DNA of 64,000 nt from an uncultured bacterium (lineage in GTDB: Bacteria > Oederibacteriota > Muellerivitia > Muellerivitales > Muellerivitaceae): the NCBI GenBank assembly GCA_964392085.1, contig CAYMOV010000002.1, positions 27,314 through 91,313 of the forward strand, written 5' to 3'. The notes beneath the pieces are model-generated. The model did no database searches. It was given only the letters and a program-made list of their open reading frames with translations, and had not been told where the DNA came from. Below, piece by piece: positions 9,704-25,574 of this stretch. The translations under genes were made by a program, and so were the position numbers. Each line of letters opens with the position of its first letter. Position 1 is the stretch's first letter.

Positions 9704-9978
9704 GGACGGCCTGGGTCTTTAGGTCATCGTTGCATGGGGCCGGCATGACTTCTTTTATCCTCAAAGACAAGCCTTAACACTGGGCCCGGCTTTTCATTTA
9801 AGCTTAAAACAAGCCATAACCCGTCCCTGATAACGAACTGCTTGTTGGACTAGCGACATTGGAATAACATGGCTGGCAATTAGCTGGTGTTTGAAGGATT
9901 GGGCTTCAGGCGTACGTTCGCCGAATGGAATCTTGATCCGTAAGCATTACATTCTGCAGGCAAAAAGGTCTAGGACGA

Positions 9979-12900
9979 ATGGGTATCCATCCGGGTGGTT
10001 TCACCAAACTGTTTCGGTTAATGATGGCTTTCATGGTTTGCGTGGTCCTCTCGGCACAGGTCGTCCATTGTTTTGCACAGGGAAGGCCCCCTTCCAACAC
10101 TCCCACGCCTTCTATGGACCCCTCGACCGGGCCGTCGAATCTCACCTTAACTTCAGTAGGTACCCGGGTGATTCTATCTTGGGACCCGCCGACGAATGGT
10201 TTATTGACCCAGCCGGATGGGTATCGTTTGTGGCGTGCCGTCCTTCCGGGGGAAGCCTATAACACGATTGATGGGATATCCTCCAACGCCGCGACGGCTT
10301 CCAGTCCGACAGCCCAGGACTCACCGGGATACGGGACTTGGTTCTATAAGGTGGAGGCCTATCACGCCACGGCCTCGGGGAATTATTCCCAGTTCTCGAA
10401 CGTGGTGGGAGTGAACATGGGTCAACATATGACCCCGACTCCCACGGCCGCCTCTGGGTTGGCTTATTCGCTGGTCCAACCCTTGTTGGCGAACACCAGC
10501 ACCTTTACCCGGACTCCGACGAGGACCTTCACGCCGACCGTCAATAGGACCGGCACGGCAACCTTCACGCGCACGAAGACAAACACCCCGACCATCACCC
10601 GAACCGGCACTTTCACCTTCACACCGACGAAGACGGGGACGCCTACCGTCACCCGAACCGGTACTGCAACTTTCACCCTCACGAAGACGTTTTCCCCGAC
10701 GATCACCCGAACCGGAACATTCACCTTCACACCGACGAAGACCGCCACGGTCACCTTCACCCCGACCAAAACCAATACCCCCACCCTCAACCGCACCGGA
10801 ACGCCTACCCCGACCCCGACGAGGACCGGCACCCGGACCAATACTCCCACGCGGACATCGACCAAAACCTTCACTCCCAGCTTTACCCCAACGCGAACAT
10901 TCACATCCACCTCAACCAAGACCTTTACATCCACCTGGACGAGTACCCCGACCCCGTCTTATTCCCCGACGCCGACTTCGACCCCCACCTTTACTTGGAC
11001 TTGGACCTACACTCCGTCGGCCACGTTCAGCGCCACCTCGACGACGACTAGGACAGACACCTCGACCATGACCTTTACCTATACACCGACCCCGAGCGAA
11101 ACATTCACACCTACCGACACTTTCACCTTTACTTCAACATTTACCCTTACCGACACTTTTTCCCCAACGGATACGCCCACCTCTACGCCGACTTCCACCT
11201 GCACAGATACCCCCACTTCAAGTGATACCTTTACCCCGACCTGGACCGATTCGGCGACTCCAACAGGGACCGACACTTTCACTTCGACCTTTTCCTTCAC
11301 ACCGACACCGACCGACACGAATACGGCATCCCCCACCGATACAACTACGAATACCTTCACAGCCACTCCTACTTGGACCATCACGGATACCCCTACCTTA
11401 ACCGCAACCTCCACATGGACAGGAACCGATACGGACACCTTCACGCCTGTCGACACGAGCACGAATACAACAACTCCGACCATTGCCTCTACAGCCACAG
11501 TGACCCCAACCCGTACCGCAACGGCGACCAACACCCCCTCGAATACTATGACCTTGACCCTAACGCCCTCCAATACTCCAGCGGCTTTACCGCCCGGAAC
11601 GAATTTTGTCGGCAACCAGGCCCCGGTGGATGGTTATGACGACTTCCTGATGATGTCCCCGACGAGCCAAGGTAGTGTGCGCTTTACTTCGAGGCAAAGC
11701 GGGACCTTGACGTTTGTCATGGTTTACTTCAGCCAAGCGACGGGATCCCCGTTTTATTACGCGGAAATCCAGGGAGATAACGCCGGTGTTCCGAATGGAA
11801 TTGTTTTAGGTTCCTCTTCGACCTACCTCCTCGGCAGTAACCAATGGATCATGTTGATGTTCGGCTCTACGCATTTGACGGCTGGTACGGTGTACCACTT
11901 GGTCATGCGTGCCGGGACGGTCGACCCCTCGAACTACGCGACTTGGCGGATCGGGACGAGCCCCGGGCATCATTTATTCCCCTATGACCAAGTCGCGGAT
12001 CCAAACCAAGGGACCGCAAAGAATCTTGGTGCTGGGTGGGTGGCCTCGTCGGAACAGCCTGTGTTCGACCTTGTGTTTGGAGCATATCCATATTCTTTTG
12101 ACGGAAATCCATATTCAGTGGGGACCGAATACCAGGTGAACTCCGGTTCATTCTTGGGGGAACGGTTCGTGGTGGCAGCGGCGCCTCTGACACTGCAAGG
12201 GGTGGGTGCTTATGTGAAGAAGGTGGGGTCGCCCACGGCGGATCTCAATTGGCAGATTAAATCGGAATCCAATGGGGCTACTGTGGCTTCAGGGACTCTA
12301 GTTAATGCGGGAGCGGCCCCGGGTACCTACCAATGGGTTGATGCGTCGGCGTCCGTGACGCTGGGAACCGGAATTTACCGATTTGTTTTATTGTCGGGAA
12401 CGGCGCCCGGTTCGGATTATCGGTGGATATCTGGAAATATCGGCGGTGGCGGTGGATTCGGATCAACCCCATTAACCTATGGTGGTGAGACTGCTAGGGC
12501 CGGTCAGTCGTTTGACGGCATCAACTGGTCTGATTTTACGAGTGGCCAGGGATATAACGACGACTTCGCTTTCAGGCTCTTGCAGTCGACGGTTGCCGTG
12601 ACCCCGACACCCACCCCGACGGCGTTGCCGCCCGGGATGGATTTCGTGGGGAACCAGGCGCCTGTGGACGGATATGACGAGTTTCCCATGATGAACCAGG
12701 CCTACCAGGGAAGCATTCGCTTCACGGCCAGGCGAACGGATGCGTTGAATATTGTCTGGCTGTATTTCAGCCAGTCAACGGGCGGCCAATATGTCGTGGA
12801 AATCCAGGCGGACAACGCCGGTGTTCCAAGTGGGACGGCGCTGGCAAGGTCAGTGACTTTTTACGGAAATTACGGATGGACAATGGCGAGTTTCTCGCCC

Positions 12901-14523
12901 ATGCCGAACCTGACTGCCGAGTCGGTGTACCACCTGGTTTTGAAAGCGAGTTCGGTCAATGCGACCAGCTACGCGACGTGGCGGCTGGGGTCGAGTCCGG
13001 GACACCATTTGTATCCCTATGATCAGGTTTTGGATCCAAACCAAGCAACCTTGAAAAACGTAGGAGTGGGGTGGGCAACCTCGGTGGATCAGCCAATTTT
13101 CGCTTTAACGTATGGCGTATACCCGAATTTCAACTATGACGGAAACCCCTATGGAATCGGGACTGAATACCGGGTGAATGCCAGTTCATACTTGGGGGAG
13201 AGGTTCGTAGTGGCTGCGGCGCCGCTGACCCTGCAAGGGGTGGGTGCTTATGTGAAGAAGGTGGGAGTCCCGACTGCGGATCTACAGTGGCAGATTCAGA
13301 GGGAGTCAGACGGGACAACGGTTGTCTCGGGGACACTGGTCACGGCGGGCTCCGCGCCTGGGGCGTACCAGTGGGTGGATGCACCTACGACCGGGATCGT
13401 GCCAACCGGTGTATACCGGTTCGTCTTGTTGTCGGGTACCAATCCCGGAACTGATTACCGGTGGATTTCTGGAGGGGGAGAAGCTCTGCCGGGCGCATCC
13501 TCGATGACGTATGACGGGGATCGCGGGCGAGCCGTGACGTCGGCGACAGGGACCAATTGGATGAACATCAGCTATCTCGGATACACCAACGACGACTTCG
13601 CGTTCCGCATCCTACGGTCGACGGTTGCCGCGACCCCGACTGACACCCCGACATTTACCGCCACACCGAGTATAACTCCGACCCTAGATCCAACTGATAC
13701 CCCCTTCTTGACATCGACGCAGACCCCTACCGCTACCACGACTATTGATTTGAACCAAACCCCAAGTTTTACCGCGACCGCTGAATTGACCGATACGCCA
13801 ACCATTATTCCCCCCCTTACCTCGACTGACACGGCGACATCGACCATCCAATTAACGGTGACCTCCACTGAAACGCCAACAATGCAAAATACATACACGG
13901 AAACACCCACTTATACCGCCACACCCACCACCACCCCGCATACTTCTCCTACAAGCGCCATGACTCCACCACCGGGTGTTTATTGGGATTTGGCGGAATT
14001 CGGGAGATATCGACAAGCCGGCATAACACTCATATTCACTAATTTGCAGATATCCGCCAACAGAAGGCCGGATCCCACTGCGAGCGTGACCCTGACAACC
14101 CCCTTGGGGCCTGTGCCACTGGTTAACTTCATGAATACAGACACCTATTCTCATTTTTCTCCCTCGGGGGGTGTGTCTTATATACCAGGCGGAACCTACA
14201 TTCTCACAACCGTTACGTCGGCGGGCACCGCCGCCGCCACGTTGGTCGCACCCGGTGGAAATATTGTGATCACGCCGGATGGGAAGTCGGCCACATGGGA
14301 TGTTGAAGGGAATGAGGATTATTTATTCGACAACCAATTTGCTTCCTACAACGTCACGTCAGATATCGATTCGCCCTACAGCATTCCTGATTTGGCCTAT
14401 CCAGCCGCAGGGACCTATAATGTGTCGTTGTATTCACAAAACACGACCTATAACGTGAGCGGGGTTAGTGTGCCATGCCGTTTCACCATTAAAGATTCGC
14501 TTACGGTGCCAGTCGTTAAATAA
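9979..14523 (+). CDS. Giant secreted Thr-rich surface protein: signal peptide, FN3-like domain, Thr-rich 18-aa tandem repeats, two copies of a ~345-aa module of unknown fold, a second Thr-rich linker, C-terminal domain
   Basis: 1514-aa ORF. N-terminal hydrophobic signal (MMAFMVCVVLSAQVVHCFAQG). FN3-like LTLTSVGTRVILSWDPP...WFYKVEAYH. Repeats TxTKTxTPTxTRTGTxTF. Duplicated module NQAPVDGYD...DDFAFR(L/I)L. Confidence 0.8.
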   Translation: MGIHPGGFTKLFRLMMAFMVCVVLSAQVVHCFAQGRPPSNTPTPSMDPSTGPSNLTLTSVGTRVILSWDPPTNGLLTQPDGYRLWRAVLPGEAYNTIDGISSNAATASSPTAQDSPGYGTWFYKVEAYHATASGNYSQFSNVVGVNMGQHMTPTPTAASGLAYSLVQPLLANTSTFTRTPTRTFTPTVNRTGTATFTRTKTNTPTITRTGTFTFTPTKTGTPTVTRTGTATFTLTKTFSPTITRTGTFTFTPTKTATVTFTPTKTNTPTLNRTGTPTPTPTRTGTRTNTPTRTSTKTFTPSFTPTRTFTSTSTKTFTSTWTSTPTPSYSPTPTSTPTFTWTWTYTPSATFSATSTTTRTDTSTMTFTYTPTPSETFTPTDTFTFTSTFTLTDTFSPTDTPTSTPTSTCTDTPTSSDTFTPTWTDSATPTGTDTFTSTFSFTPTPTDTNTASPTDTTTNTFTATPTWTITDTPTLTATSTWTGTDTDTFTPVDTSTNTTTPTIASTATVTPTRTATATNTPSNTMTLTLTPSNTPAALPPGTNFVGNQAPVDGYDDFLMMSPTSQGSVRFTSRQSGTLTFVMVYFSQATGSPFYYAEIQGDNAGVPNGIVLGSSSTYLLGSNQWIMLMFGSTHLTAGTVYHLVMRAGTVDPSNYATWRIGTSPGHHLFPYDQVADPNQGTAKNLGAGWVASSEQPVFDLVFGAYPYSFDGNPYSVGTEYQVNSGSFLGERFVVAAAPLTLQGVGAYVKKVGSPTADLNWQIKSESNGATVASGTLVNAGAAPGTYQWVDASASVTLGTGIYRFVLLSGTAPGSDYRWISGNIGGGGGFGSTPLTYGGETARAGQSFDGINWSDFTSGQGYNDDFAFRLLQSTVAVTPTPTPTALPPGMDFVGNQAPVDGYDEFPMMNQAYQGSIRFTARRTDALNIVWLYFSQSTGGQYVVEIQADNAGVPSGTALARSVTFYGNYGWTMASFSPMPNLTAESVYHLVLKASSVNATSYATWRLGSSPGHHLYPYDQVLDPNQATLKNVGVGWATSVDQPIFALTYGVYPNFNYDGNPYGIGTEYRVNASSYLGERFVVAAAPLTLQGVGAYVKKVGVPTADLQWQIQRESDGTTVVSGTLVTAGSAPGAYQWVDAPTTGIVPTGVYRFVLLSGTNPGTDYRWISGGGEALPGASSMTYDGDRGRAVTSATGTNWMNISYLGYTNDDFAFRILRSTVAATPTDTPTFTATPSITPTLDPTDTPFLTSTQTPTATTTIDLNQTPSFTATAELTDTPTIIPPLTSTDTATSTIQLTVTSTETPTMQNTYTETPTYTATPTTTPHTSPTSAMTPPPGVYWDLAEFGRYRQAGITLIFTNLQISANRRPDPTASVTLTTPLGPVPLVNFMNTDTYSHFSPSGGVSYIPGGTYILTTVTSAGTAAATLVAPGGNIVITPDGKSATWDVEGNEDYLFDNQFASYNVTSDIDSPYSIPDLAYPAAGTYNVSLYSQNTTYNVSGVSVPCRFTIKDSLTVPVVK
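10500..11580 (+). repeat. Coding tandem repeat (about 54-bp period, Thr/Pro codon-rich) inside the giant surface protein gene
   Basis: Periodic ACC/ACG/CCG-rich units encoding T(R/P)TKTxTPT(I/V)TRTGT(A/F)TF. Decays into irregular Thr-rich low complexity. The minus strand reads as Val-rich shadow ORFs. Confidence 0.8.
11581..12615 (+). repeat. Copy 1 of an internally duplicated ~1.03 kb coding module (ALPPGTNFVGNQAPVDGYDDF ... FAFRLLQSTVAVTPTPTPT)
   Basis: About 60% amino-acid identity to copy 2 over about 345 aa, with collinear conserved blocks (GSPGHH(L/F)(Y/F)PYDQV, GERFVVAAAPLTLQGVGAYVKKVG, YRFVLLSGT). Confidence 0.8.
12620..13650 (+). repeat. Copy 2 of the duplicated module (ALPPGMDFVGNQAPVDGYDEF ... 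FAFRILRSTVAATPTDTPT)
   Basis: See copy 1. A near-identical 24-aa stretch GERFVVAAAPLTLQGVGAYVKKVG is shared. Confidence 0.8.
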
Positions 14524-14599
14524 ACCTACGATTTCCTTTGGGGCCAAAATGCCCCGATGCCAATTTCGTTGGAACTTTCGTCGTGCCATCTGCGATTTT

Positions 14600-14623
14600 T
14601 TTCGGTGACTGAAATTTGAACGA
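14600..14623 (+). promoter_or_regulatory. Degenerate copy of the TTTAAATG-N7-TTTGAACGA motif (TTTCGGTG-ACTGAAA-TTTGAACGA) in the AT-rich region upstream of the TPR/Exb operon
   Basis: TTTGAACGA is exact and the upstream half-site is 5/8. Sits about 200-400 bp upstream of the first operon gene. Confidence 0.35.
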
Positions 14624-15023
14624 CTTCCAAAATTCGATTTCCCCGATATTCAACTATCTGGATCCCAATGCGGAAATGCCCAAGGCTCCTCATTCCTTGT
14701 CCTTTAAATTGAAAAAGCCTGAAATGTTCTGCTGGTTATGGCGTGACTGATTACTGCGTCCCTGGAATCATTGAGGGTGTTTTGTAATAACCGAATGAAT
14801 TTACGGCGGGTCATAGGTGGACTCCGATGGGGTTGGGATTTTAAGCAATGGCTATTGTTCAAGGAGACCCCTGGGGCCCATAGGGGCTGGAACAGTGGGG
14901 CCGGGCAGGGGTCCTAGGGGGTGGAGCGGGGCCTCATTCCAGGCGCTTTCTGCTTCTAGGGGGCCCCAAGGGTGGGTATACTGGCCCACGAAACCACCAT
15001 CCTTGGGGGCGCAAAGACCCATC

Positions 15024-18020
15024 GTGATCCCGGAGAAAAGCCTGAAAGCCTCCTCCTTACCTATACGCCAAGTCCTGGCGCTTCTTCTCCTATTTGCGCC
15101 AGGCGGCATGGCCTGGGCCGCCGGTCCCTCGCCCATGGAAGAAGGCAAGGTCCTCCTTAAGGCTCGGGCCTACAAGTTAGCCCTGGAGCGGTTCTTGACC
15201 GCCGGGGAACGGTCCTCCGACGCCAGCGCCAAGGCCGAGGCCTTCCGCTTGGTGGCGGAAGCCCAGTTCCGGGCCAAGGATTTCGAGGCGGCCTATGAGG
15301 CCAGCCGACAGGCGATCCGGCTCGAGCCCCTCAGCTCCGCCGCCGACGATTCCGAGTTCCGCGCCGCCATCTCCCAGATCCACCTCCATGAGTTCCACTC
15401 CGCCCAGGCCGCATTGGAACGTTACCAGGCGACCCATCCCCACGGGGACCGGGCTTCCGACGTCCGGTTCTGGATCGGGGAATGCCTGTTCCAAACCGGA
15501 AAGTCCGCTGACGCCCAGGACCAGTACCGGAAGATCCTCGAGACTGACCCCAAGTACGCCCATACGGACCTCGTGCGGTTCCTCAACGCCTGGTGCTCCT
15601 ACCGGCTCGGCGCCTTCGAGGAGGCCCGCGAGGGCTTCGCCACGGCGCGGGACACCACGCTCGACCCGGCGCTCCAGAAACTGGCTTCCTTCCAGGTGGC
15701 CGAGGCGGATTACCGGTTGGGGCATTTCAAGGACGCCTCCGAAGGTTACTCGGCCTTCATGGACAAGTACCCGGGCGATTCGCTGGAACCCGCCGCACTT
15801 TATGGCTCAGGTTGGTCCAAGGCGAAGCTGAACGATTCCGCCGGAGCCCAGGCGGCGTTCGGCAAGGTCGTGTCGGGTTGGGGCTCCCATCCCCTGGCCC
15901 CCTGGGCCGCGGTTCGGCAGGGCGTCAACGCCACCCTCGCGGGGAAGACCGACGACGCCCGGGCGGCCTACGGCAAGGCCCTCGACCTGGCGGCGGGCAA
16001 GCCGCCCGCGGACCAGGCCGCCTTCGGCCTGGGTTGGATCGACTTCAAGGACGGCAAACGGAAGGACGCGGCCGAACATTTCCGTTTGACGGCGAATTTC
16101 CAGCCCGAGAGCCCCCTGAAGAACGACGCGACTTACCTGTTGGCGGGCTGCCTCTACCTTGACGGTAAGACCGACGACGCGCTTCCTTACTATGAGCGCC
16201 TGGCCCAGGCGAAGGCGGGTGAGTTGTCCACCGCCTCCGCCTATTGGAGCGGTTGGTGCTATTACGCCCAGGGCCGCGCGAAGGACGCCTTGGACCGTTT
16301 CCTCAAGCCGCCCGCCGGGATCGGGAGCCCCTGGAAGGCCCGGTTCCTCTGGGCCGCCGCCGAGTCCGCCTACCGGTCCGGCGATAAGGCCCAGGCGCGG
16401 CGCCTTTACCAAAAGTCCCTCGATGTCCCCAACAGCCCGGTGGCCCAAGAGGCCTGGCTTGGGTTGGGTTGGTGCTGGTTCGACGACGAGAACTACGATG
16501 AGGCCTACAAGGCGTTCCAAAAAGCCGCAGCCGCCAAAAGCGGTAATTCCGCCTCGGTGGAGGCCCGCCTCCGGGCAGGAGATTGCCTCTACAACCTGCA
16601 CCGTTACGGTGAGGCGGAGGGAGCCTACAAGGCCCTGGCGGATTCCAAACCCGGGGGCGACACCGAATTGGACGCCCTGGAACAATGGGGCTGGTGCGCC
16701 TACCGACAGGACCGTTACGGCGACGCGGACAGCCGGTGGAAGGCCCTGCTGGCCAAGCCTGAGGCGGCGGACCGGGCACCCCGGCTGAGGTATTGGATCG
16801 CCTGGTCGAAGTTCCGCGCCAAGAAATTCGAGGAGGCCGCCGACGCCTTCCAACAGGTCCTGGACAAGGACCCGGACCATCCCCTGGCCGCCGAGGCGCT
16901 CCTGCGGATCGGCGACTGCTATTTCAACCTGGGCCGCTTCAACAAGTCCCTCGAGACCTACCAGAAGTTCCTCAAGGCCTACCCCGACCACCGGCTCCTG
17001 CCGGACGCCCTCTACGGGGTGCAATGGTCCTACGAAAAGATGGGGAAGAAGGGGGAGGCGGCCAAGGCCGCCCAGCAATTCCTGGTCGATTACCCCAAGT
17101 CCGCATTCGCCCCCGAGGTCCAATACCGCTTGGCCGACACCCTTTACCACGACGAGAAGTTCGACAAGGCCGCGGCGGCCTACCAGGAACTGCTCGACAA
17201 GTACCCCAAGAGCGCCCAGGCCCCCCGGGCCCTGTTCTGGCTCGGCACGGCCCAGGTGAAGATCGACAAGCTTTACGAGGCCTCCCTGACCTTCAAGAAG
17301 CTCCTGTCCGACTTCCCCGACGATCCCCTCACCCTCGAGGGGCGCTTCAGCCTGGGGTCGGTTTACTTCCAACAGAAGGACTACCTGAACGCCTTGGACG
17401 CCTACCGGTACGTGTCCGACAAGTTCCCGACCCACCGGTTGGCGCCCCACGCCCTCTTCAACGCGGCCATCTGCGCCAAGGAAATGCACCAGGAGGACCG
17501 CGCCCTCAAGATGTTCGAGCGCCTGAGGGTGGAGCACGCCGCCGATCCCCTGGCCGACGAGGCCTCCCTCCAGTCGGGCATCCTGCTGGAACAGGCGGGG
17601 CGTCTCCCCGAGGCCTTGGCGGCCTACGACCAGGCCAAAAAGATCCCGAAGGAATCGTTGGCCGTGGAGGCCACCTACGACCACGCCCAGCTCCAGATGA
17701 CGATGAAGAACTACGACGCGGCGGCCGAGGAGTTCAACTTCCTCACGATCCATTACCCCAAACAGGACCAATGGGTGGTGACGGCCTTCGCGAGGATCGC
17801 GGAGTGCTATGAGGCCCAGTCCAAATACCAGAAGGCCGCGGACACCTATAAGCGCATCCTGAAATACACCGGCGTTAAGGAATGGCGTGATTCCGCCCAG
17901 AAACGCCTGGACGCCCTCCAACCCTTCCTCACCCCGACGCCCGGCGTACCGGGCGGGACACCCGCCAAAGCAAAAAAGAAACCCGCCAAGAAGCGCAAGA
18001 AGGCGGTGGCGAAACCATGA
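15024..18020 (+). CDS. Large tetratricopeptide-repeat (TPR) protein with signal peptide, about 1000 aa, Lys-rich C-terminus
   Basis: A GTG at 15024 gives a classic signal peptide (IPEKSLKASSLPIRQVLALLLLFAPGGMAWA/AGP). The ORF is open from an ATG at 14817, but that upstream part is Gly/Pro-rich and looks non-coding. Many TPR-like motifs (Y..A...Y..LL..YP). C-terminal KAKKKPAKKRKKAVAKP. Its stop overlaps the next start (ATGA at 18017). Confidence 0.7.
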   Translation: MIPEKSLKASSLPIRQVLALLLLFAPGGMAWAAGPSPMEEGKVLLKARAYKLALERFLTAGERSSDASAKAEAFRLVAEAQFRAKDFEAAYEASRQAIRLEPLSSAADDSEFRAAISQIHLHEFHSAQAALERYQATHPHGDRASDVRFWIGECLFQTGKSADAQDQYRKILETDPKYAHTDLVRFLNAWCSYRLGAFEEAREGFATARDTTLDPALQKLASFQVAEADYRLGHFKDASEGYSAFMDKYPGDSLEPAALYGSGWSKAKLNDSAGAQAAFGKVVSGWGSHPLAPWAAVRQGVNATLAGKTDDARAAYGKALDLAAGKPPADQAAFGLGWIDFKDGKRKDAAEHFRLTANFQPESPLKNDATYLLAGCLYLDGKTDDALPYYERLAQAKAGELSTASAYWSGWCYYAQGRAKDALDRFLKPPAGIGSPWKARFLWAAAESAYRSGDKAQARRLYQKSLDVPNSPVAQEAWLGLGWCWFDDENYDEAYKAFQKAAAAKSGNSASVEARLRAGDCLYNLHRYGEAEGAYKALADSKPGGDTELDALEQWGWCAYRQDRYGDADSRWKALLAKPEAADRAPRLRYWIAWSKFRAKKFEEAADAFQQVLDKDPDHPLAAEALLRIGDCYFNLGRFNKSLETYQKFLKAYPDHRLLPDALYGVQWSYEKMGKKGEAAKAAQQFLVDYPKSAFAPEVQYRLADTLYHDEKFDKAAAAYQELLDKYPKSAQAPRALFWLGTAQVKIDKLYEASLTFKKLLSDFPDDPLTLEGRFSLGSVYFQQKDYLNALDAYRYVSDKFPTHRLAPHALFNAAICAKEMHQEDRALKMFERLRVEHAADPLADEASLQSGILLEQAGRLPEALAAYDQAKKIPKESLAVEATYDHAQLQMTMKNYDAAAEEFNFLTIHYPKQDQWVVTAFARIAECYEAQSKYQKAADTYKRILKYTGVKEWRDSAQKRLDALQPFLTPTPGVPGGTPAKAKKKPAKKRKKAVAKP

Positions 18021-19762: not shown

Positions 19763-19847
19763 AACCATTTAACACAGGGACCACCGAGTGCACAGGGACG
19801 GCGGTCGACTCTTAGATTGAAGAGCAAGCAACTTACGGAGGGGTTTC

Positions 19848-20462
19848 ATGACGCACGAATTCTCGCTGTTGCAGGTCATGCTCAAGGGGGGATGGGTCAT
19901 CGGTTTCCTCCTGATCCTCTCCGTCCTGGCATTGGCCATCCTGATCGACCGCTGGCGGGCTTTCGCCCGTTCGGGCCGGGACCGGGGGGAATTGATGAAG
20001 TCCGTGGAGCCATTCTGGAAAAAGAACCCCCAGGAGGCCGCGGCCTCCTGTGAGCGGGACGGCAGTGTCCCGGCCCTGGCCCTGGCGGCCGGGTTAAGGG
20101 CCAAGAAGGACGGCACCGGGGACCCGCGAGGCGCCATGGACCGCGAGGCCAAGGCCCGTTTGATGGACCTAGAGACCCGGTTGCCCCTGTTGGGAACCCT
20201 CGGGAACCTGGCCCCCTACATCGGCTTGTTCGGCACTGTCCTGGGGATCATCCGCGCCTTCCGTGACCTCTCCCTGGCCAACGCCGGGGGCGCCGCCGTG
20301 GTGAGCCAGGGGATCGCCGAGGCCCTGGTGGCCACCGCCTCGGGCCTTTTCGTGGCGGTCCTGGCCAGCGCGGGGTTCAATTACTTCCAATCCCGGCTGG
20401 ATGTCCTGGCCCGCGAGACCGAACTGGTGATCGACGAGGCCGCCGAAAAACTCCAGGACTGA
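19848..20462 (+). CDS. exbB: MotA/TolQ/ExbB proton-channel family protein
   Basis: Three TM segments and the conserved LGTLGNLAPYIGLFGTVLGII...AIAEALVATASGL block of TolQ/ExbB. RBS GGAGGGG upstream. Confidence 0.85.
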   Translation: MTHEFSLLQVMLKGGWVIGFLLILSVLALAILIDRWRAFARSGRDRGELMKSVEPFWKKNPQEAAASCERDGSVPALALAAGLRAKKDGTGDPRGAMDREAKARLMDLETRLPLLGTLGNLAPYIGLFGTVLGIIRAFRDLSLANAGGAAVVSQGIAEALVATASGLFVAVLASAGFNYFQSRLDVLARETELVIDEAAEKLQD

Positions 20463-20492
20463 CCTTTTCGCCGTGATTCCCCGGGAGGCAAG

Positions 20493-20978
20493 ATGGAAAA
20501 CCGATTGAGGCACAAGACCAAGCTCATCACCGACATCAACATGGTGCCCTTCACCGACGTGGTGCTGGTGCTGTTGGTGATCTTCATGGTGACCACCCCT
20601 TTCCTGTTCCAGGGCGACTTCCAGGTGAGCTTGCCCAAGGTGGCGGCCCCGAACCCCAATATCCCCGAGGCCCTGACGCTCACGGTCGCCCAGGGTGGCC
20701 GGTTGGCGTTGAACGGCCAGGAGATCAAGTTCGAGGAACTGGCCGAGAAGATCGGGGTTTTGATGAAGCAGAACCCCAACCAACAAGTGGTCATCGAGGC
20801 CGACAGCGGGGTGTCCCACGGGACCGTCATGGGCGTCATGGGGGAAGCCTACGCGGCCGGGGTGACGAAGATGGGCATCGCGGTGGAGCAAAGCCACGGA
20901 TCGGTCGTGGAGCAGAACCCAAGCCCCGCAGGGGCGCAGAATCCAGGCGCCGCCGTGGCGCCCGTCACGGCGAAGTAA
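20493..20978 (+). CDS. exbD: ExbD/TolR biopolymer transport protein
   Basis: INMVPFTDVVLVLLVIFMVTTPF TM motif with the conserved Asp, plus a periplasmic domain. 161 aa. Confidence 0.85.
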   Translation: MENRLRHKTKLITDINMVPFTDVVLVLLVIFMVTTPFLFQGDFQVSLPKVAAPNPNIPEALTLTVAQGGRLALNGQEIKFEELAEKIGVLMKQNPNQQVVIEADSGVSHGTVMGVMGEAYAAGVTKMGIAVEQSHGSVVEQNPSPAGAQNPGAAVAPVTAK

Positions 20979-21021
20979 AGGGTAGCTGATCCGGGAACTT
21001 AAACCGGGAAAGGAGGCGGCC

Positions 21022-21795
21022 ATGGACAAGAACTTCGGACAGTCGTTCCTCATCTCGCTCGGCGTCCACCTGGCCCTGTTCCTGGTCCTTTTCGGGGTCC
21101 TGGGGACCTTCCTCGTGGCCCGGACGCCTGCCTTCATGGAACTCACCCTCATCGGCATCAGTTCCCGCGGCGACGGGCCCGGCGCCCAACAGACCCTGCG
21201 GGGCGAGACCTCCGTTTCGCCGGAGGCCGCCGACCCCGGAAAAGGGGACACCTTCTCAAGCCCCAAGGTGAAGTCCGACCTGAAACAGCAGGCCGCTCCG
21301 AAGGCAGGGGACCTCGCGGTCAAGCGGCCTACGCCCTCAACCGCCCAGACCAGCAAGTCCGACCAATCGGCCTACCTCCAGGCCCTTCACCAATCGGCGC
21401 CCATCGGGATTTCCCCGAAGCGGGCCGTGCCCGACAGCATCAAGACCACCGCGGGGCTGGGCTATGGAGGCGTGACGGGCACCCCCAACGGCCGGGTGGA
21501 CATTGAGGGCGAACTGGCGGCCCGGGGCATCCAACGGAAGGTCGTGCCCGCCTACCCCGATTGGGCCAAGAAGCAGGGCGTCGAGGGGACCATCCAATAC
21601 CGGGTCACGGTGCTCCCGAACGGGTACCTGCGCGACGACGTCCAATTGGAGCAGACCAGCGGGTGGCGTGAACTGGACCGACAGGCTTATGAGGCCCTGC
21701 TCCAATGGGAGTTTGACCCCCTGCCCTCCGCCATGCCCCAGGTCAACCAATCGGGGTTGGTGACCTTCAACTTCAGCTTCAAGAACCAACCGTGA
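21022..21795 (+). CDS. tonB: TonB/TolA-like energy transducer (N-terminal TM anchor, Pro/Ser-rich linker, TonB C-terminal domain)
   Basis: N-terminal TM LISLGVHLALFLVLF. C-terminal domain with PAYPDWAKKQGVEGTIQYRVTVLPNG...V, typical of the TonB_C fold. Confidence 0.7.
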   Translation: MDKNFGQSFLISLGVHLALFLVLFGVLGTFLVARTPAFMELTLIGISSRGDGPGAQQTLRGETSVSPEAADPGKGDTFSSPKVKSDLKQQAAPKAGDLAVKRPTPSTAQTSKSDQSAYLQALHQSAPIGISPKRAVPDSIKTTAGLGYGGVTGTPNGRVDIEGELAARGIQRKVVPAYPDWAKKQGVEGTIQYRVTVLPNGYLRDDVQLEQTSGWRELDRQAYEALLQWEFDPLPSAMPQVNQSGLVTFNFSFKNQP

Positions 21796-23894
21796 GAGCC
21801 CGCGGGTTCTTGGCCTTGTCGTTCCTGGCGGCCTGGGCCCTGGGCCTCCAATTGGTCGCCCCGGGCCTCATGGCGGGGGATTCCCCCGAATTGGCGGCCT
21901 CGGCCTACGGTTGGGGAATCTCCCACCCTCCCGGTTATCCCCTTTGGACCCTGTTGGCCCACCTCGCCGGTTCCATCCCCTTGGGATGCCCCGCCTTCCG
22001 GACGAACCTCGTCTCCCTTTTCCCGACCGCCCTCGCGACTGCGGCCTTGGGGTTCCTCCTGGCCCGCCGGACCGGTGGGGGCGCCCTCGGGGAATGGGTG
22101 GGTTACGGGACGGCTTTTTTCATCGGGACGGGTCCCTTGTTCCTGGACCAAGCCACCGGCACCGAAGTCTACGGTCTCCATGGGTTGATCCTGACGGGCC
22201 TCCTGGCCCTCACCCTGGAAATTTCCTCCGAGCGTTTTTACGCCGTGATGTTCCTCGTGGGGCTCGGCGTGGCCCACCACCACCTACTGCTCCTCTTCCT
22301 GCCGGCGATCGGTTGGGCCTACCGGGATTTCCTGCGAAGACCCTCCTTCCTCCTGAGGGGGATGTCGCTCGTAGGTTTGGGCCTCTCGCTTTATTTGCTC
22401 CTGCCCATCCGGGCGTTGGCCCATCCGGCGGCGGATTGGAGCCGTCCCGATACCTGGACCCAATTTTGGAGCCACGTGAGCCGAAACCAATACGGCGGGG
22501 ATCTCCAAAGCGGGGCCTTCCTCCACGCCCTTTGGAACGCTTTGTTTTTTTGGAAGGACATCCTACGGGACGGTTGGTTCTTGGCGGGGATCCTCGCGTC
22601 CTGGGGGATCTGGACCCGGCGGAAAGCCTGGAGGGGTGAAATCCCGATCGCCTTAGGCCTGGCGGGTTTGGGCCTGGGCCTGCCGTTGCTCCTTCGGGTA
22701 CATCCCGATCCCCAAAACAACTCGGTCATGGAGGCCTTTTTCCCCCCGATGATGATCTGGGGATCCCCTTGGGTGGCGGTAGGGCTCCAGGGGCTATCCG
22801 CGCGGATGTCACGACCCTGGGTCCGGACGGTCGGGGCCCTCCTGCTCACCGGATTATTGGCCGCGCGGGTTGGCTCCGCCCTTTTTGTCTCGAGCCAATC
22901 CCGAAACCTCGCCTGCGAGGACATGGGCCGCAACTTCCTCTTGAACCTGCCCCGGGGCGCGGCTCTCTACAGCGAGGGTGATACGGCCACGTTTCCATTG
23001 GCTTACCTAAAGCAGGTAATGGGTCTCCGGCCCGACGCCGAGGTTTTCGACCGGACCGGTGGGCTGTTCGGCGATTTTTACGGCTTGCTCGATGTCGGGG
23101 GGACTGGGTCGGAGGATCCGACGGTTATGGTCCGAAAGGAACGGGGCCGCGAGTCTTCCCATCCAAGCCAATCCATCTTTTACAGCGAGAAGGAGACTGC
23201 TCCCGGCAGGACCCTGGCCCCAGCCGGGTTCCTCTTCCAGGCGACTGACTCGGGCGCGCCCTCCTGGGACGAGTCCAAGTTTTGGCCGAGGGCCCGGGAG
23301 CCCCGGGCGGGTTTGGCCCAGGACTTCCTCAGCCGGGAAACCGGCGCCCGGTTCTACGTCTTCCGCGCCCTGGCGGGGCTCCGGGGCAAAGCCCCCCTGG
23401 GGAAGATCCGGGACGACTTCGCCGGGACGGCGCGTTTGGCCTGGGACAATACCCGTGTCCTGAATAACGTGGGGATGGAAACCCTCAGGGCGGGATGGGT
23501 GGACGGGAGCCTTCCGTATTTTGAAGGCGCCGTGGAGCAGGATCCGGACTTCACCCTGGGCTGGTACAACCAGGGAATCGTCGCGCGGCAACAGGGTCGG
23601 ACCCGGGACGCGGTCCAGTTCTTCCAAAGGGCGCTCCAGGCGGACCCGGCCTACAGCCCGGCGCGGGACAGTTGGGCGATCCTCCTCTACAACAACGGCC
23701 ATCCCCCGGAGGCCGTGGACCAATGGCAGAGGCTCCTGGAACTCGATCCGTCCTACGCCCCGGGGTACCGGAACCTGGGTTTCGCACTCGCCACCCAGGA
23801 CGTGACGATGTCCAAACAACTCCTGGCCCGGTACCTCCAAATAAACCCGGGTGCCCCTGAACGGGCCCAGGTCGAGGCTTTGTTGAACCATTGA
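21792..23894 (+). CDS. Polytopic membrane protein of the DUF2723/TMEM260-like (GT-C-fold-like) family with C-terminal TPR repeats
   Basis: N-terminal motif AGDSPELAASAYGWGISHPPGYPLWTLL matches the D-x-GE-(L/F)-x-x-A-x-x-LG-x-x-HPPG-YPL signature of DUF2723. 8-10 predicted TM helices, then TPR-like repeats (WYNQGIVARQQGR..., AYSPARDSWAILLYNNGH...). Start overlaps the tonB stop. Confidence 0.55.
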   Translation: MRARGFLALSFLAAWALGLQLVAPGLMAGDSPELAASAYGWGISHPPGYPLWTLLAHLAGSIPLGCPAFRTNLVSLFPTALATAALGFLLARRTGGGALGEWVGYGTAFFIGTGPLFLDQATGTEVYGLHGLILTGLLALTLEISSERFYAVMFLVGLGVAHHHLLLLFLPAIGWAYRDFLRRPSFLLRGMSLVGLGLSLYLLLPIRALAHPAADWSRPDTWTQFWSHVSRNQYGGDLQSGAFLHALWNALFFWKDILRDGWFLAGILASWGIWTRRKAWRGEIPIALGLAGLGLGLPLLLRVHPDPQNNSVMEAFFPPMMIWGSPWVAVGLQGLSARMSRPWVRTVGALLLTGLLAARVGSALFVSSQSRNLACEDMGRNFLLNLPRGAALYSEGDTATFPLAYLKQVMGLRPDAEVFDRTGGLFGDFYGLLDVGGTGSEDPTVMVRKERGRESSHPSQSIFYSEKETAPGRTLAPAGFLFQATDSGAPSWDESKFWPRAREPRAGLAQDFLSRETGARFYVFRALAGLRGKAPLGKIRDDFAGTARLAWDNTRVLNNVGMETLRAGWVDGSLPYFEGAVEQDPDFTLGWYNQGIVARQQGRTRDAVQFFQRALQADPAYSPARDSWAILLYNNGHPPEAVDQWQRLLELDPSYAPGYRNLGFALATQDVTMSKQLLARYLQINPGAPERAQVEALLNH

Positions 23895-23983
23895 ACGGTT
23901 CGAACGATCCCTCAGGACAGGGTCCCCAACCCAAGTCGGCTGGGTTAAACTACACATCAGCTTGAACAAGGCGGGATGCGGCC

Positions 23984-24922
23984 ATGGCGAGATTGGCGGG
24001 GGTATTCGCGAACGAGGGCGCCCAAAACGTGGGCATGGGCAAGGAATTCTACGACAAGTCCCTGACCGCCCGGAAATACTTCGATGACGCCGAGAAGATC
24101 CTGGAACTGAAGGTCGCCAAGCTTTGCTTCCTCGGCCCCAAGGAGGAGCAGGACCTCACCCCGAACGCCCATTACGCCACGTTTGTCTGCGGCGTGGCGG
24201 CCTGGGAACTCCTGGTGGCCAACAAACGGCGCGCCGAGGTGGTGACGGGGGCCGGGGTTGGCGAGATCGCCGCCCTGACGGCCGCCGAATGCCTGCCCTA
24301 CGGGGCCGCCTTGAATTTCATCTACAAACGCGCCCAATGGATCGACGCGAAGGTGGGCCCGGACAAGGGCCGGTCGCTCATGGTCCAGGGGATCCCCACG
24401 GAGAGGCTGTCGGGGGCCCTCTCCCGGGAGGAAGGTGAGCTCCACCTGACCCACCGGTTGGCCCCTGACGTCCAGGTGGTGTGGGGCCCGCGGGAGGCGG
24501 CGGAATCCCTCGAGCTGGAATTGCAAGGCGCACCCGGCGTGAAGGTTACGTCCGCCACCACCCGGGGGCCGCTCCACACGCCCTTGGCGGCCGCCTGGGA
24601 AGCCGACCTGGAGGCCCTCCTGACGGCCTGCCTGGCGGGCGCCCCCCTCAAGAACCCGAAGGCCACCGTCCACCGGGTCTCCGACGGGGAATACGTGGGG
24701 ACCCCCGAGGGTATCCGGGACATCCTGATCCGGCAGTATTCAAGACCGGTGGACTGGACCCAAACGGTGTCCGTCCTGACGGGCCGGGGGTACCGGACTT
24801 TCGTGGAGATGGGACCGGGGAAGGTCTACACCACCCTCGTCAAACGCATCGACAGCAACACCCGGGTGGCCAACGTGGAGGACGTGAAGTCGCTATCGGT
24901 GGCCCTGAAGGTGACTTCCTGA
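23984..24922 (+). CDS. FabD-like (malonyl-CoA:ACP transacylase fold) protein with degenerate active site
   Basis: Collinear with FabD: GVFANEGAQNVGM vs FVFPGQGSQTVGM, GAGVGEIAAL vs GHSLGEYSAL (nucleophilic Ser replaced by Gly), VEMGPGKVYTTLVKRI vs YEVGPGKVLTGLTKRI. No fab or acp neighbours. Confidence 0.6.
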   Translation: MARLAGVFANEGAQNVGMGKEFYDKSLTARKYFDDAEKILELKVAKLCFLGPKEEQDLTPNAHYATFVCGVAAWELLVANKRRAEVVTGAGVGEIAALTAAECLPYGAALNFIYKRAQWIDAKVGPDKGRSLMVQGIPTERLSGALSREEGELHLTHRLAPDVQVVWGPREAAESLELELQGAPGVKVTSATTRGPLHTPLAAAWEADLEALLTACLAGAPLKNPKATVHRVSDGEYVGTPEGIRDILIRQYSRPVDWTQTVSVLTGRGYRTFVEMGPGKVYTTLVKRIDSNTRVANVEDVKSLSVALKVTS

Positions 24923-24929
24923 GGACCGA

Positions 24930-25574
24930 ATGAAATTGCCCGTCCAAACCAGTTATTCCCGAGCCGGTCAATCCTCGTTTGGGACCCGGCGCCTTCGTCT
25001 CCTGGCCTTGGCCTTTGGGATCCTCGGGGTGTTCGGTTACGGCCCGGTCCCGGATCGGACCGCCGTTCCCGAGCCGCCGCCCCCCCCGACGGCGACTTCG
25101 ACCGACAGCCCCGCCTCGACCCCCACGGGGACCCTCACGCCGCCCCCCAGTCCCACCCCCACGGGTTCCCCGACGGCCACGCCCGTGATCGTATTGCCGG
25201 TTTACCTGGAACCGACCGAAACGGCGACGCCGGTGGTGCCGGTCCCCACCCAAGAGTTGGACGACGTGGGGCCTGTCCCGACGCTGCCCGAACTGTCGGT
25301 CTTCCCGAATCCCGCCCAGGATAAGAACGTTTATTTCCGCTTCAGGTCCCCGGAGGATTGGAAGGTGGTGGTGCGTATCTTCGATTCCTACGGCGACGAG
25401 GCGGCCCGCCTCGATCAGGAAGGCAAGGACACCTTCGACCTCCCATGGGCCTTGGGCAAGATCGAGTCGGGCATCTATTACTACCGGATCACCGCGGAGC
25501 ACTTGGCGTCCGGACGGATCCTGCGGTACCCCGTGGGCCGGTTCGTCGTGGACCGCATCAAGACCCGCAAATAG
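24930..25574 (+). CDS. Small secreted protein with Pro/Thr-rich linker and a Por/T9SS-type C-terminal beta-sandwich (FlgD-Ig-like) domain
   Basis: Signal peptide RRLRLLALAFGILGV. PPPPPTATSTDSPASTPTGTLTPPPSPTPTGSPTATP linker. C-terminal LSVFPNPAQDKNVYFRF...GIYYYRI resembles the T9SS sorting-domain consensus. Confidence 0.5.
   Translation: MKLPVQTSYSRAGQSSFGTRRLRLLALAFGILGVFGYGPVPDRTAVPEPPPPPTATSTDSPASTPTGTLTPPPSPTPTGSPTATPVIVLPVYLEPTETATPVVPVPTQELDDVGPVPTLPELSVFPNPAQDKNVYFRFRSPEDWKVVVRIFDSYGDEAARLDQEGKDTFDLPWALGKIESGIYYYRITAEHLASGRILRYPVGRFVVDRIKTRK

What the first reader, a model, noticed from the sequence alone, without database searches (positions are those of the whole stretch)
9979..25574. 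Two DUF2723 (TMEM260-like, GT-C-fold) genes co-occurring with many Thr/Pro-rich secreted proteins: candidate protein O-glycosylation module
The window encodes two paralogous DUF2723-TPR membrane proteins (21792-23894 and 56647-58638). It also encodes at least five secreted proteins with long Thr/Pro-rich linkers: the 1514-aa giant protein, the SGNH hydrolase at 8324, the T9SS-CTD-like protein at 24930, and the secreted protein at 48474. Human TMEM260 was recently reported to be a protein O-mannosyltransferase. PMT-type GT-C enzymes in Actinobacteria mannosylate Thr/Pro-rich linkers. The giant Thr-rich protein sits immediately upstream of the DUF2723-containing operon. The inference is that these DUF2723 proteins glycosylate the Thr-rich surface proteins.
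Basis: inference. Interest (0 to 1): 0.7.

Follow-up and report, generated by a model that had tools for sequence, protein, structure and literature searches.

The report
Two bacterial TMEM260-type glycosyltransferase genes
The window, from an uncultured soil bacterium of candidate phylum FCPU426, encodes two well-conserved relatives of the human protein O-mannosyltransferase TMEM260, but their position near Thr/Pro-rich secreted proteins is a local accident rather than a dedicated glycosylation module, so that substrate link remains an open, plausible guess.

Summary

Four exported Thr/Pro-rich proteins are present, not five. The proposed "module" does not hold up. Both genes sit in housekeeping gene blocks that are conserved across phylum FCPU426. 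Copy a is the last gene of a TPR / outer-membrane protein / ExbB / ExbD / TonB operon. The SGNH hydrolase and giant Thr-rich genes are a lineage-specific insertion between rpsA and that operon. No sugar-donor gene lies in the window.

Context from about 160 other GT117 loci supports protein glycosylation in general. Pilin-like genes lie directly upstream in two clades. In the clade nearest copy a, a GH125 alpha-mannosidase-like gene is a conserved downstream partner. Thr-rich exported proteins lie directly upstream in three loci.

Verdict: these are new members of a known enzyme family. The Thr/Pro-linker substrate idea is plausible (about 0.3) but unproven.

The parts
21792..23894 (+). GT117/TMEM260-family GT-C glycosyltransferase, copy a (700 aa). 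It has 11 TM helices (aa 1-366), a periplasmic alpha/beta 'palm' domain (aa 374-500) and TPR 'fingers' (aa 512-699). Its GTG start overlaps the TonB stop codon (GTGA).
56647..58638 (-). GT117/TMEM260-family GT-C glycosyltransferase, copy b (663 aa as the longest ORF). Orthologues suggest the true start is about 40 codons downstream. It has a short C-terminal TPR region.
   Evidence: PF11028 at 35 bits, with PMT_2 at 24.8 bits, below its cut-off. phmmer to 9rql_A gives E 2.4e-12 over aa 42-460, with FGD(65)NGD aligned to GGD(52)SGE and GD aligned to human G440-D441. Its orthologue group is 36-96% identical and 613-652 aa long. The block cyclase / GT117b / MutL / MiaA is syntenic in L082 and L083.
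14817..18020 (+). Large TPR protein and first gene of the operon. The real start is probably near the signal-like stretch LALLLLFAPGGMAWAAG, around position 15030.
   Evidence: Many TPR families match, and there are CpoB/YbgF-like repeat hits. It is conserved at 46-62% identity at the same position in L001, L004, L005 and L012.
18017..19762 (+). 581-aa exported protein with no Pfam family, possibly an outer-membrane beta-barrel. Its start overlaps the end of the TPR gene.
   Evidence: No Pfam hit. There is a weak TonB-dependent receptor C-terminal hit, E 0.0036. It is conserved at 28-47% identity in FCPU426 loci.
19848..20462 (+). ExbB/TolQ-type proton channel subunit
   Evidence: PF01618, E 2.4e-28
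20493..20978 (+). ExbD/TolR-type subunit
   Evidence: PF02472, E 3.4e-27
21022..21795 (+). TonB-like protein with a Ser/Thr/Pro/Lys-rich periplasmic linker and a TonB_C domain
   Evidence: PF03544, E 8.2e-14; sequence
9979..14523 (+). Giant exported protein (1514 aa). In order it has a signal peptide, an FN3-like segment, a Thr-rich TxTxT stalk (aa 165-535, nt 10471-11583), two copies of an uncharacterised 330-aa domain (61% identical), a second Thr-rich stretch (aa 1215-1330) and a beta-rich C-terminal domain. It is part of a lineage-specific insertion.
   Evidence: Sequence and composition. 54/108-bp tandem repeats lie at 10516-10789. No Pfam or NCBIfam hit. The domain family has 215 representatives, and its relatives also carry long Thr-rich stalks. 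The gene is absent from the same position in relatives. Local GC is 0.56-0.57.
8324..9703 (+). SGNH/GDSL hydrolase with a lipoprotein-like N-terminus and Thr/Pro linkers. It belongs to the same insertion.
   Evidence: PF13472, E 3.3e-17. The linker reads TPTPAPSPTATPVATPTVTTTPTPNP. It is not found between rpsA and the operon in L004, L005 or L012.
24930..25574 (+). 214-aa membrane-anchored or exported protein with a Thr/Pro linker and a C-terminal sorting-domain-like beta domain. It is conserved two genes downstream of copy a across the phylum.
   Evidence: Por_Secre_tail is marginal. Orthologues occupy the same position in L001, L003, L005 and L012, with shorter Thr/Pro stretches.
23984..24922 (+). 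FabD-like acyltransferase, a housekeeping gene between copy a and the 214-aa protein
   Evidence: TIGR00128 fabD, E 1.6e-38, below its cut-off. It is conserved in all FCPU426 loci.
48474..49211 (-). 245-aa exported protein with a Thr/Pro-rich, Lys-rich C-terminal tail. The segment TPTPxxTxTPTPGP(N/S) is conserved in relatives.
   Evidence: The orthologues in L082 (270 aa) and L083 (206 aa) keep the Thr/Pro segment.

Best explanation
**Identity.** Both genes encode inner-membrane GT-C glycosyltransferases of the TMEM260 family (CAZy GT117). They are two ancient paralogues and core genes of candidate phylum FCPU426.

**Inferred mechanism.** This is by homology to the solved human enzyme.
- An 11-helix membrane 'wrist' binds a polyprenyl-phosphate sugar, most likely undecaprenyl-phosphate-mannose. 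The sugar is held by D30, H45 and Y234, and the phosphate by R231.
- A periplasmic Rossmann-like 'palm' supplies the catalytic base D397.
- The TPR 'fingers' hold an extended stretch of a Sec-exported polypeptide, so that a Ser or Thr hydroxyl attacks the sugar.

**What is shown and what is inferred.** Family membership, fold, topology and active-site conservation are shown. The donor sugar, protein acceptors and activity are inferred.

**Not a module.** The genes do not form a glycosylation module with their neighbours. Copy a is the last gene of a conserved TPR / outer-membrane protein / ExbB / ExbD / TonB operon. Copy b sits between a signalling cyclase and mutL.

**Acceptors.** The acceptor proteins are unknown. 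The Thr/Pro-rich linkers of this lineage's exported proteins are the most obvious candidates, but nothing in the window ties them to these enzymes.
For: **Family membership**
- Pfam hits are above the curated cut-offs.
- Direct phmmer hits to vertebrate TMEM260 reach E of about 1e-18 in the large database. Against the solved human chain they are 6.4e-21 and 2.4e-12.

**Active site**
- D30, H45, G48, P50 and R413 are invariant. E125, R231, Y234, D397 and D415 are at least 90% conserved across 60 bacterial and vertebrate sequences.
- Chain numbering places human D52 on the GGDSGEL Asp. The roles of D52, H67, R264, Y267, R355 and D441 come from the structure preprint 10.64898/2026.03.17.711096 and from PMC10214176.

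**Fold and topology**
- Eleven hydrophobic helices with Arg/Lys clusters on alternating loops put all conserved residues and the C-terminal domains outside the cytoplasm.

**Core-gene status**
- Orthologues at 35-85% identity (copy a) and 36-96% (copy b) lie in the same gene order in FCPU426 MAGs.

**Protein acceptors in the family**
- A type IV pilin-like gene lies immediately upstream on the same strand in 14-15 loci of two separate clades.
- TPR domains are protein-binding.

**Mannose**
- A GH125 alpha-mannosidase-like gene directly follows the GT117 gene in L019, L084, L085 and L086.
- L086 also carries GDP-mannose dehydratase and GT2 genes.
Against: - No activity, donor or acceptor has been tested for any bacterial member. 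No bacterial study was found in the paper library.
- Human R355, which contacts mannose, is Ala in copy a. Human R264, which contacts the phosphate, is Gln in copy b.
- No polyprenyl-phosphate-sugar synthase or flippase gene lies in the 64 kb.
- The fold match does not separate protein acceptors from lipid or glycan acceptors. ALG12, ArnT, AftA and AftB score as well as Pmt4.
- Copy b was not modelled.
- The pilin and GH125 contexts come from other clades, which are 25-30% identical to the window proteins.
Confidence: 0.6

Rival explanations
1. The two GT117 enzymes are the O-glycosyltransferases for the Thr/Pro-rich linkers and the mucin-like Thr stalks of this organism's surface proteins. 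They would act as the chains emerge from Sec, as actinobacterial Pmt does.
For: - All four Thr/Pro-linker proteins are exported.
- TMEM260 binds extended, Pro-containing peptides and transfers to Thr or Ser.
- Thr/Pro segments are kept in orthologues from relatives that also keep both GT117 genes.
- Thr-rich exported proteins lie immediately upstream on the same strand as GT117 genes in L019, L084 and L095. L095 has three GT117 genes in tandem.
- L019 and L084 belong to the clade nearest copy a in a neighbour-joining tree.
- Relatives of the giant protein all carry several-hundred-residue Thr stalks.
Against: - Adjacency in the window results from a lineage-specific insertion. The giant protein has no homologue in any other locus.
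- Only 5-6 of about 160 GT117 loci have any Thr-rich gene. A rough estimate of the chance of the three adjacencies is 0.05-0.1.
- High-GC GT117 loci from other phyla have none.
- Human TMEM260 is sequon-specific, and that sequon is absent here.
- The known linker mannosylases are GT39 enzymes with MIR domains, not GT117.
- The neighbour-joining tree has no support values.
Confidence: 0.3
2. Copy a works for the envelope system it is co-transcribed with. It would glycosylate a specific site in the TonB-like protein, the 581-aa outer-membrane protein, the large TPR protein or their clients. Alternatively it recognises a narrow sequon, as human TMEM260 does. On this reading the Thr/Pro linkers are irrelevant.
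For: - The order TPR / OMP / ExbB / ExbD / TonB / GT117 is conserved in all FCPU426 loci, which are 35-48% identical.
- The TonB stop and GT117 start overlap in the window and in L001.
- The TonB-like linker is Ser/Thr/Pro-rich.
- The only characterised family member is sequon-specific.
Against: - The conserved block continues through plainly unrelated housekeeping genes (fabD, der, plsY, gpsA). Gene order in this phylum is therefore conserved in general.
- Outside FCPU426 the ExbB/ExbD/TonB link is absent. Three loci have such genes nearby, none in an operon with the GT117 gene.
Confidence: 0.15
3. The acceptor is not a protein. The enzymes would decorate lipid A, LPS core, peptidoglycan or another envelope glycan from a polyprenyl-phosphate sugar, as ArnT, the arabinosyltransferases and YfhO do.
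For: - Copy a lies in an envelope-related operon next to lipid-synthesis genes.
- Neighbours of GT117 genes elsewhere include YfhO and PMT_2 family genes.
Against: - Sequence similarity is specific to TMEM260, a protein O-mannosyltransferase. None of the lipid- or glycan-acting GT-C enzymes appears among the sequence matches.
- The palm Asp that activates the peptide hydroxyl is conserved.
- TPR domains and the pilin partners point to protein clients.
Confidence: 0.12

Closest known systems
Human TMEM260 (CAZy GT117), ER protein O-mannosyltransferase for IPT domains; structures 9RQL, 9RQM, 9RQN
   Same: - Direct sequence homology, with E-values of 6e-21 and 2e-12.
- The same three-part build: an 11-TM GT-C core, a Rossmann-like domain and TPRs on the non-cytoplasmic side.
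- The first-loop motif GD(S)xE...HPPGYP, the R-x-x-Y donor loop and the GD...RPD palm motif with the catalytic Asp are conserved.
   Different: - It is a bacterial inner-membrane enzyme, so the donor would be an undecaprenyl-type lipid rather than dolichol.
- Identity is 21-25%.
- Human R355 is Ala in copy a, and human R264 is Gln in copy b.
- The human sequon P-x5-P-x3-G-P-x2-G/A-G-G-x2-T/S is absent from the window's proteins.
- There are two paralogues instead of one gene.
- No activity is known.
Actinobacterial and fungal PMT (GT39) with Ppm1, which O-mannosylate Ser/Thr/Pro-rich regions of Sec-exported proteins
   Same: - A first-loop acidic residue.
   Different: - It is a different family. 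There is no PF02366 or MIR domain, and only a sub-threshold PMT_2 hit for copy b.
- TPR and Rossmann-like domains take the place of MIR.
- No Ppm1-like gene lies in the window.
Pseudomonas aeruginosa TfpO (PilO) and TfpW, pilin glycosyltransferases encoded directly downstream of pilA (from my own knowledge; not tested here)
   Same: The gene logic is the same as in 14-15 GT117 loci of other phyla. A pilin-like gene is followed on the same strand by a polytopic lipid-linked-sugar transferase.
   Different: - The window has no pilin-like gene.
- TfpO and TfpW were not compared with GT117 here.
- The pilin-linked GT117 clades are distant from the window's two proteins.
TMTC1-4 (GT105), TPR-bearing GT-C O-mannosyltransferases for cadherins
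   Same: A GT-C core plus luminal TPRs for selecting protein clients.
   Different: No sequence match to TMTC proteins was seen. The family is different and lacks the palm-domain motif.

Membership tests
TMEM260 / DUF2723 / CAZy GT117 | Match to the family profile PF11028 above the curated cut-off | tested here: met
   Copy a scores 57.0 bits and copy b 35.1 bits against a cut-off of 24.2.
TMEM260 / DUF2723 / CAZy GT117 | Direct sequence similarity to the characterised human enzyme | tested here: met
   phmmer against PDB chain 9rql_A gives E 6.4e-21 for copy a (aa 11-236) and E 2.4e-12 for copy b (aa 42-460). Vertebrate TMEM260 is also hit at E of about 1e-18 in the 5.8-billion-protein database.
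TMEM260 / DUF2723 / CAZy GT117 | Donor-binding and catalytic residues of human TMEM260 (D52, H67, R264, Y267, R355, D441) | tested here: met
   Copy a keeps D30, H45, R231, Y234 and D397, but has Ala at the R355 position. Copy b keeps the Asp, His, Tyr and palm Asp, but has Gln at the R264 position. That is five of six for copy a and at least four of six for copy b; the R355 position was not checked in copy b.
TMEM260 / DUF2723 / CAZy GT117 | GT-C transmembrane fold with a luminal or periplasmic Rossmann-like domain and TPR domain | tested here: met
   [not shown]
TMEM260 / DUF2723 / CAZy GT117 | Transfer of mannose from a polyprenyl-phosphate-mannose donor to Ser/Thr of a protein | not testable with these tools
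   This needs biochemistry or glycoproteomics. The only indirect hint is the GH125 alpha-mannosidase-like partner in a related clade.
TMEM260 / DUF2723 / CAZy GT117 | The human acceptor sequon in candidate substrates. This defines the human enzyme's specificity, not the family. | tested here: not met
   No real protein of the window contains P-x6-P-x3-P-x2-GG-x3-T/S or its shorter forms.
Dedicated protein O-glycosylation gene cluster ('module') | Transferase co-located and co-conserved with donor-synthesis or flippase genes, acceptor genes, or both | tested here: not met
   No GT2, GtrA or sugar-nucleotide gene lies in the 64 kb. The neighbours are Ton/Tol-type and housekeeping genes conserved across the phylum. 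The giant Thr-rich gene is an insertion.
PMT (GT39) protein O-mannosyltransferases | PF02366 PMT core and MIR domain | tested here: not met
   Neither domain was found. Copy b has only a clan-level PMT_2 hit at 24.8 bits, below the 26.1 cut-off.

The most novel reading that the evidence does not exclude
FCPU426 and a few related uncultured lineages build surface proteins on mucin-like threonine stalks hundreds of residues long (TxTxT). Bacterial TMEM260 homologues would O-mannosylate these stalks as they leave the Sec channel. This would be the first function for bacterial GT117. It would also be a bacterial counterpart, and perhaps the ancestor, of the metazoan IPT-domain O-mannosylation pathway. 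In other phyla the same family would glycosylate type IV pilins.
Probability: 0.25. Interest if true: 0.7.

Novelty: new member of a known kind. Interest (0 to 1): 0.42.

Why it matters
- TMEM260 was recognised as a protein O-mannosyltransferase only in 2023, and its structure dates from 2026. Its many bacterial homologues have no known function.
- This work shows that the bacterial proteins keep the full catalytic machinery, and it gives three testable kinds of candidate client: Thr-rich stalk proteins, pilin-like proteins and Ton/Tol-operon proteins.
- If a bacterial GT117 were shown to mannosylate Thr-rich linkers or pilins, that would add a new protein O-glycosylation route in bacteria.
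- It would also offer simple model enzymes for a human disease gene (SHDRA syndrome).
- The window itself is not the best entry point. Loci such as L019/L084 (Thr-rich proteins, GT117, alpha-mannosidase-like gene) or the pilin-GT117 pairs are cleaner.

Tried and rejected
- **afdb50** was not available, so no structural superposition on TMEM260 models was possible.
- **The human TMEM260 sequon** gave no hit in real proteins of the window.
- **A pilin-like class III signal** was not found in the window, so the pilin reading does not apply here.
- **Donor-synthesis genes** were sought in all sizeable ORFs of the window and none was found.
- **The ExbB/ExbD/TonB link outside FCPU426** is not general. 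I therefore did not treat the operon as strong functional evidence.
- **Immediate neighbours of 74 other GT117 genes** gave only TPR, YfhO and PMT_2 at low counts, with no GT2 or GtrA enrichment.
- **A word-indexed homology search with the giant protein's domain** found nothing. The exhaustive search did find relatives.
- **The idea that the enzyme is a pseudo-enzyme** was rejected because the catalytic residues are invariant.
- **A genome-wide correlation of GT117 copy number with Thr/Pro-linker secretome size** could not be run, because only 20-kb loci are retrievable.
Full report
**What is in the sequence**

The window has a GC content of 62-66% over most of its length and encodes mostly housekeeping genes. 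On the + strand the order is:
- hisC-like, tyrA, aroA, cmk, DAHP synthase, plsC-like and rpsA;
- an SGNH hydrolase (8324-9703);
- a 1514-aa protein (9979-14523);
- an operon made of a large TPR protein (14817-18020), a 581-aa exported protein with no family (18017-19762), ExbB, ExbD, a TonB-like protein and the first DUF2723-TPR gene (21792-23894);
- a fabD-like gene, a 214-aa Thr/Pro-linker protein, der, plsY and gpsA.

The second DUF2723 gene (56647-58638, - strand) lies between an FHA-GAF-adenylate cyclase gene and mutL.

Both DUF2723 assignments pass Pfam's cut-off for PF11028, now named "Protein O-mannosyl-transferase TMEM260-like". A census of all ORFs finds four proteins with strong Thr/Pro-rich segments, not five. 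All four start with signal, anchor or lipoprotein-like sequences. The giant protein has about 370 residues at roughly 42% Thr in a TxTxT pattern. It also has two 61%-identical copies of a 330-aa domain and a second Thr-rich stretch.

**Organism**

The nearest genome records are MAGs of candidate division FCPU426, at 36-48% identity for copy a. FCPU426 is an uncultured, rare-biosphere phylum with almost no functional literature.

**Are these really TMEM260 relatives?**

Yes, on four lines of evidence.
- **Sequence.** Copy a hits vertebrate TMEM260 directly at E of about 1e-18 in a 5.8-billion-protein search. Against the solved human enzyme (PDB 9RQL/9RQM/9RQN) the E-values are 6.4e-21 for copy a and 2.4e-12 for copy b.
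- **Active site.** The structure preprint (10.64898/2026.03.17.711096) and the discovery paper (PMC10214176) define the key residues. D52 and H67 sit in the first luminal loop. R264 contacts the phosphate. Y267 and R355 contact mannose. D441 in the luminal Rossmann-like domain is the catalytic base. The D52A and D441A mutants are inactive.
- **Residue mapping.** Chain numbering places D52 on the Asp of GGDSGEL, which aligns with D30 of GDSPE in copy a. In alignments of 18 and 60 sequences, D30, H45, G48, P50 and R413 are invariant. E125, R231, Y234, D397 and D415 are at least 90% conserved. Copy a therefore keeps five of the six residues, with Ala at the R355 position. Copy b keeps the Asp, His, Tyr and palm Asp but has Gln at the R264 position.

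**Is there a glycosylation module in the window?**

No.
- Copy a's gene order (TPR / OMP / ExbB / ExbD / TonB / GT117 / fabD / small Thr/Pro protein / der / plsY / gpsA) recurs in every FCPU426 locus recovered, at 35-48% identity.
- Copy b's order (Ser/Thr kinase-NHL / FHA-GAF-cyclase / GT117 / mutL / miaA / NUDIX / S49 / PD40 and the next genes) recurs in L082 and L083.
- The conserved blocks run through unrelated housekeeping genes. They show strong general synteny in this phylum, and they show that both GT117 genes are old core genes. They do not show functional coupling.
- The GTG start of copy a overlaps the TonB stop (GTGA), so co-transcription with the Ton/Tol-like genes is likely. Outside FCPU426 that link disappears.
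- In L004, L005 and L012, rpsA lies directly upstream of the large TPR gene. In the window the SGNH hydrolase and the giant Thr-rich gene, about 6.5 kb at GC 0.56-0.57, are inserted between them. The giant protein has no homologue in any retrieved locus.
- No polyprenyl-phosphate-sugar synthase, flippase or sugar-nucleotide gene occurs in the 64 kb.

**What the wider family says**

I retrieved 79 GT117 loci from species genomes and 80 from metagenomes, about 2.1 Mb in all.

*Pilin partners.* In 14-15 loci the gene immediately upstream, on the same strand and usually less than 100 bp away, is a roughly 170-aa protein with a class III (type IV pilin) signal, KGFTLIELLIVI.
- These loci fall into two separate clades of a neighbour-joining tree: Patescibacteria, and Eisenbacteria/Dormibacterota.
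- About two such placements would be expected by chance from the motif's density elsewhere in the loci.
- This is the gene logic of pilin glycosyltransferases encoded next to pilA, and it supports protein acceptors for the family. A Saccharibacteria pilus preprint predicts pilin O-glycosylation bioinformatically and leaves confirmation to future work.

*A mannosidase-like partner.* The locus nearest copy a in that tree is L019.
- L019 and its relatives L084, L085 and L086 are 46-69% identical to each other. In all four, the GT117-TPR gene is followed directly by a GH125 alpha-mannosidase-like gene.
- L086 adds GDP-mannose 4,6-dehydratase, a GT2 and methyltransferase genes. This fits mannose chemistry.

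*Thr-rich neighbours.*
- L019 has three exported Thr-rich-linker proteins directly upstream of the GT117 gene.
- L084 has one.
- L095 has a Thr-rich protein with a sorting-like C-terminal domain, followed by three GT117 genes in tandem.
- Against this, Thr-rich genes are rare overall. Six or seven were found among 928 called genes in 84 scorable loci, and none in high-GC loci of other phyla. My rough estimate of the chance of the three adjacencies is 0.05-0.1, and L019 and L084 are not independent.
- The other immediate neighbours are unremarkable: TPR, YfhO and PMT_2 genes a few times each.

**Thr/Pro segments in the lineage**

- Orthologues of the 245-aa and 214-aa proteins in relatives keep Thr/Pro segments. 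One example is TPTPTxTxTPTPGPN in L082 and L083.
- The giant protein's 330-aa domain defines a small uncharacterised family, with 215 cluster representatives among 1.84 billion proteins. Its members P0154, P0155, P0157 and P0161 also carry Thr stalks of several hundred residues. P0154, P0155 and P0161 also end in a sorting-like C-terminal domain.
- Thr-rich stalks are therefore a real, selected trait of these organisms. They co-occur with GT117 genes, but that is compatible with both linked and unlinked function.

**How it most likely works**

*Shown:* family, fold, topology and active site.

*Inferred by homology:*
- The enzyme binds an undecaprenyl-type phosphate-hexose at the periplasmic face. 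D30, H45 and Y234 hold the sugar, and R231 holds the phosphate.
- The TPR and palm domains hold an extended segment of a newly exported polypeptide.
- D397 deprotonates a Ser or Thr hydroxyl, which attacks the sugar.

Human TMEM260 acts on extended, unfolded peptides that carry a Pro/Gly-rich sequon. Extended Thr/Pro linkers are therefore chemically reasonable acceptors. The same fact argues that these enzymes may be selective rather than bulk linker glycosylases. The enzymes known to mannosylate Ser/Thr/Pro-rich regions (PMT, GT39) are a different family.

**Comparison, novelty and score**

- The two proteins are new members of GT117 from an unstudied phylum. Databases already name the family by homology, and NCBI labels some relatives "protein O-mannosyl-transferase family".
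- No bacterial member has been characterised in the literature I could search.
- I rate the enzyme identity at about 0.6 for a protein O-glycosyltransferase.
- I rate the specific Thr/Pro-linker substrate claim at about 0.3, an operon-linked or sequon-specific client at about 0.15, and a non-protein acceptor at about 0.12.
- Interest is moderate at 0.42. The finding is a reasonable, testable hypothesis about an uncharacterised bacterial enzyme family. The window provides no specific evidence for the proposed substrate link, and better test loci exist elsewhere.

**Caveats**

- Genes in the retrieved loci were called by a greedy longest-ORF rule.
- The Thr/Pro thresholds are arbitrary.
- The tree is a neighbour-joining tree on about 430 aligned residues, without support values.
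- Signal peptides were judged by eye.
- Copy b was not modelled.

Noticed in passing
L014, L025, L027, L028, L037, L050, L052, L057, L059, L061, L063, L068, L071, L074, L075, L139 (the gene ending just before the GT117 gene, e.g. L025:9358-9876): A roughly 170-aa type IV pilin-like gene (class III signal KGFTLIELLIVI) lies immediately upstream, on the same strand, of a DUF2723/GT117 gene. This occurs in two separate clades: Patescibacteria, and Eisenbacteria/Dormibacterota. It suggests pilin glycosylation by bacterial TMEM260 homologues. I did not find it described in the papers searched.
   Followed up: partly
L019:9815-14104, L084:5275-9479, L085:5825-9829, L086:9923-13892: A conserved gene pair consists of a GT117-TPR gene followed directly by a GH125 alpha-mannosidase-like gene. 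L086 adds GDP-mannose 4,6-dehydratase, GT2 and methyltransferase genes. L019 also has a PMT_2-PA14 gene and a Mutator-family transposase among the Thr-rich genes.
   Followed up: partly
L095:232-8700: An exported Thr-rich-linker protein with a Por_Secre_tail-like end is followed by three GT117 genes in tandem (673, 745 and 732 aa).
   Followed up: no
window 8324-14523: The SGNH hydrolase and the giant Thr-rich protein genes (GC 0.56-0.57 in 10-14 kb, strong negative GC skew in the Thr-rich part) form an insertion between rpsA and the TPR-Ton operon, relative to L004, L005 and L012.
   Followed up: yes
window 11584-13620 (giant protein aa 545-870 and 890-1215): A duplicated 330-aa domain has no Pfam or NCBIfam match. 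It defines a small family of 215 representatives in 1.84 billion proteins. The four relatives read (up to 2237 aa; the hit list runs to 3407 aa) all carry very long TxTxT threonine stalks, and three of them end in a sorting-like C-terminal domain.
   Followed up: partly
window 48474-49211 (-) and L082:20931-21743, L083:11262-11882: A small exported protein family has a conserved Thr/Pro segment (TPTPTxTxTPTPGPN) followed by a Lys-rich tail. Conservation of the low-complexity segment across 40-50% identical orthologues suggests it is functional.
   Followed up: partly
window 58666-62127 (-): A Ser/Thr kinase with NHL repeats and an FHA-GAF-adenylate/guanylate cyclase lie immediately upstream of GT117 copy b. 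This arrangement is conserved in L082 and L083, and in L083 the FHA and GAF-cyclase parts are separate genes.
   Followed up: no
window 40000-44000: A lower-GC stretch (0.55) holds a tyrosine integrase gene (41605-42678, -) and several ORFs with no family. It is possibly an integrated element. The window's tRNA genes (Pro at 29850 and 30068, Arg at 37475) are not adjacent to it.
   Followed up: no
window 18017-19762: A 581-aa exported protein with an Ala/Pro-rich N-terminal region has no family match apart from a faint TonB-dependent-receptor C-terminal hit. It is conserved in the Ton/Tol-like operon across FCPU426.
   Followed up: no
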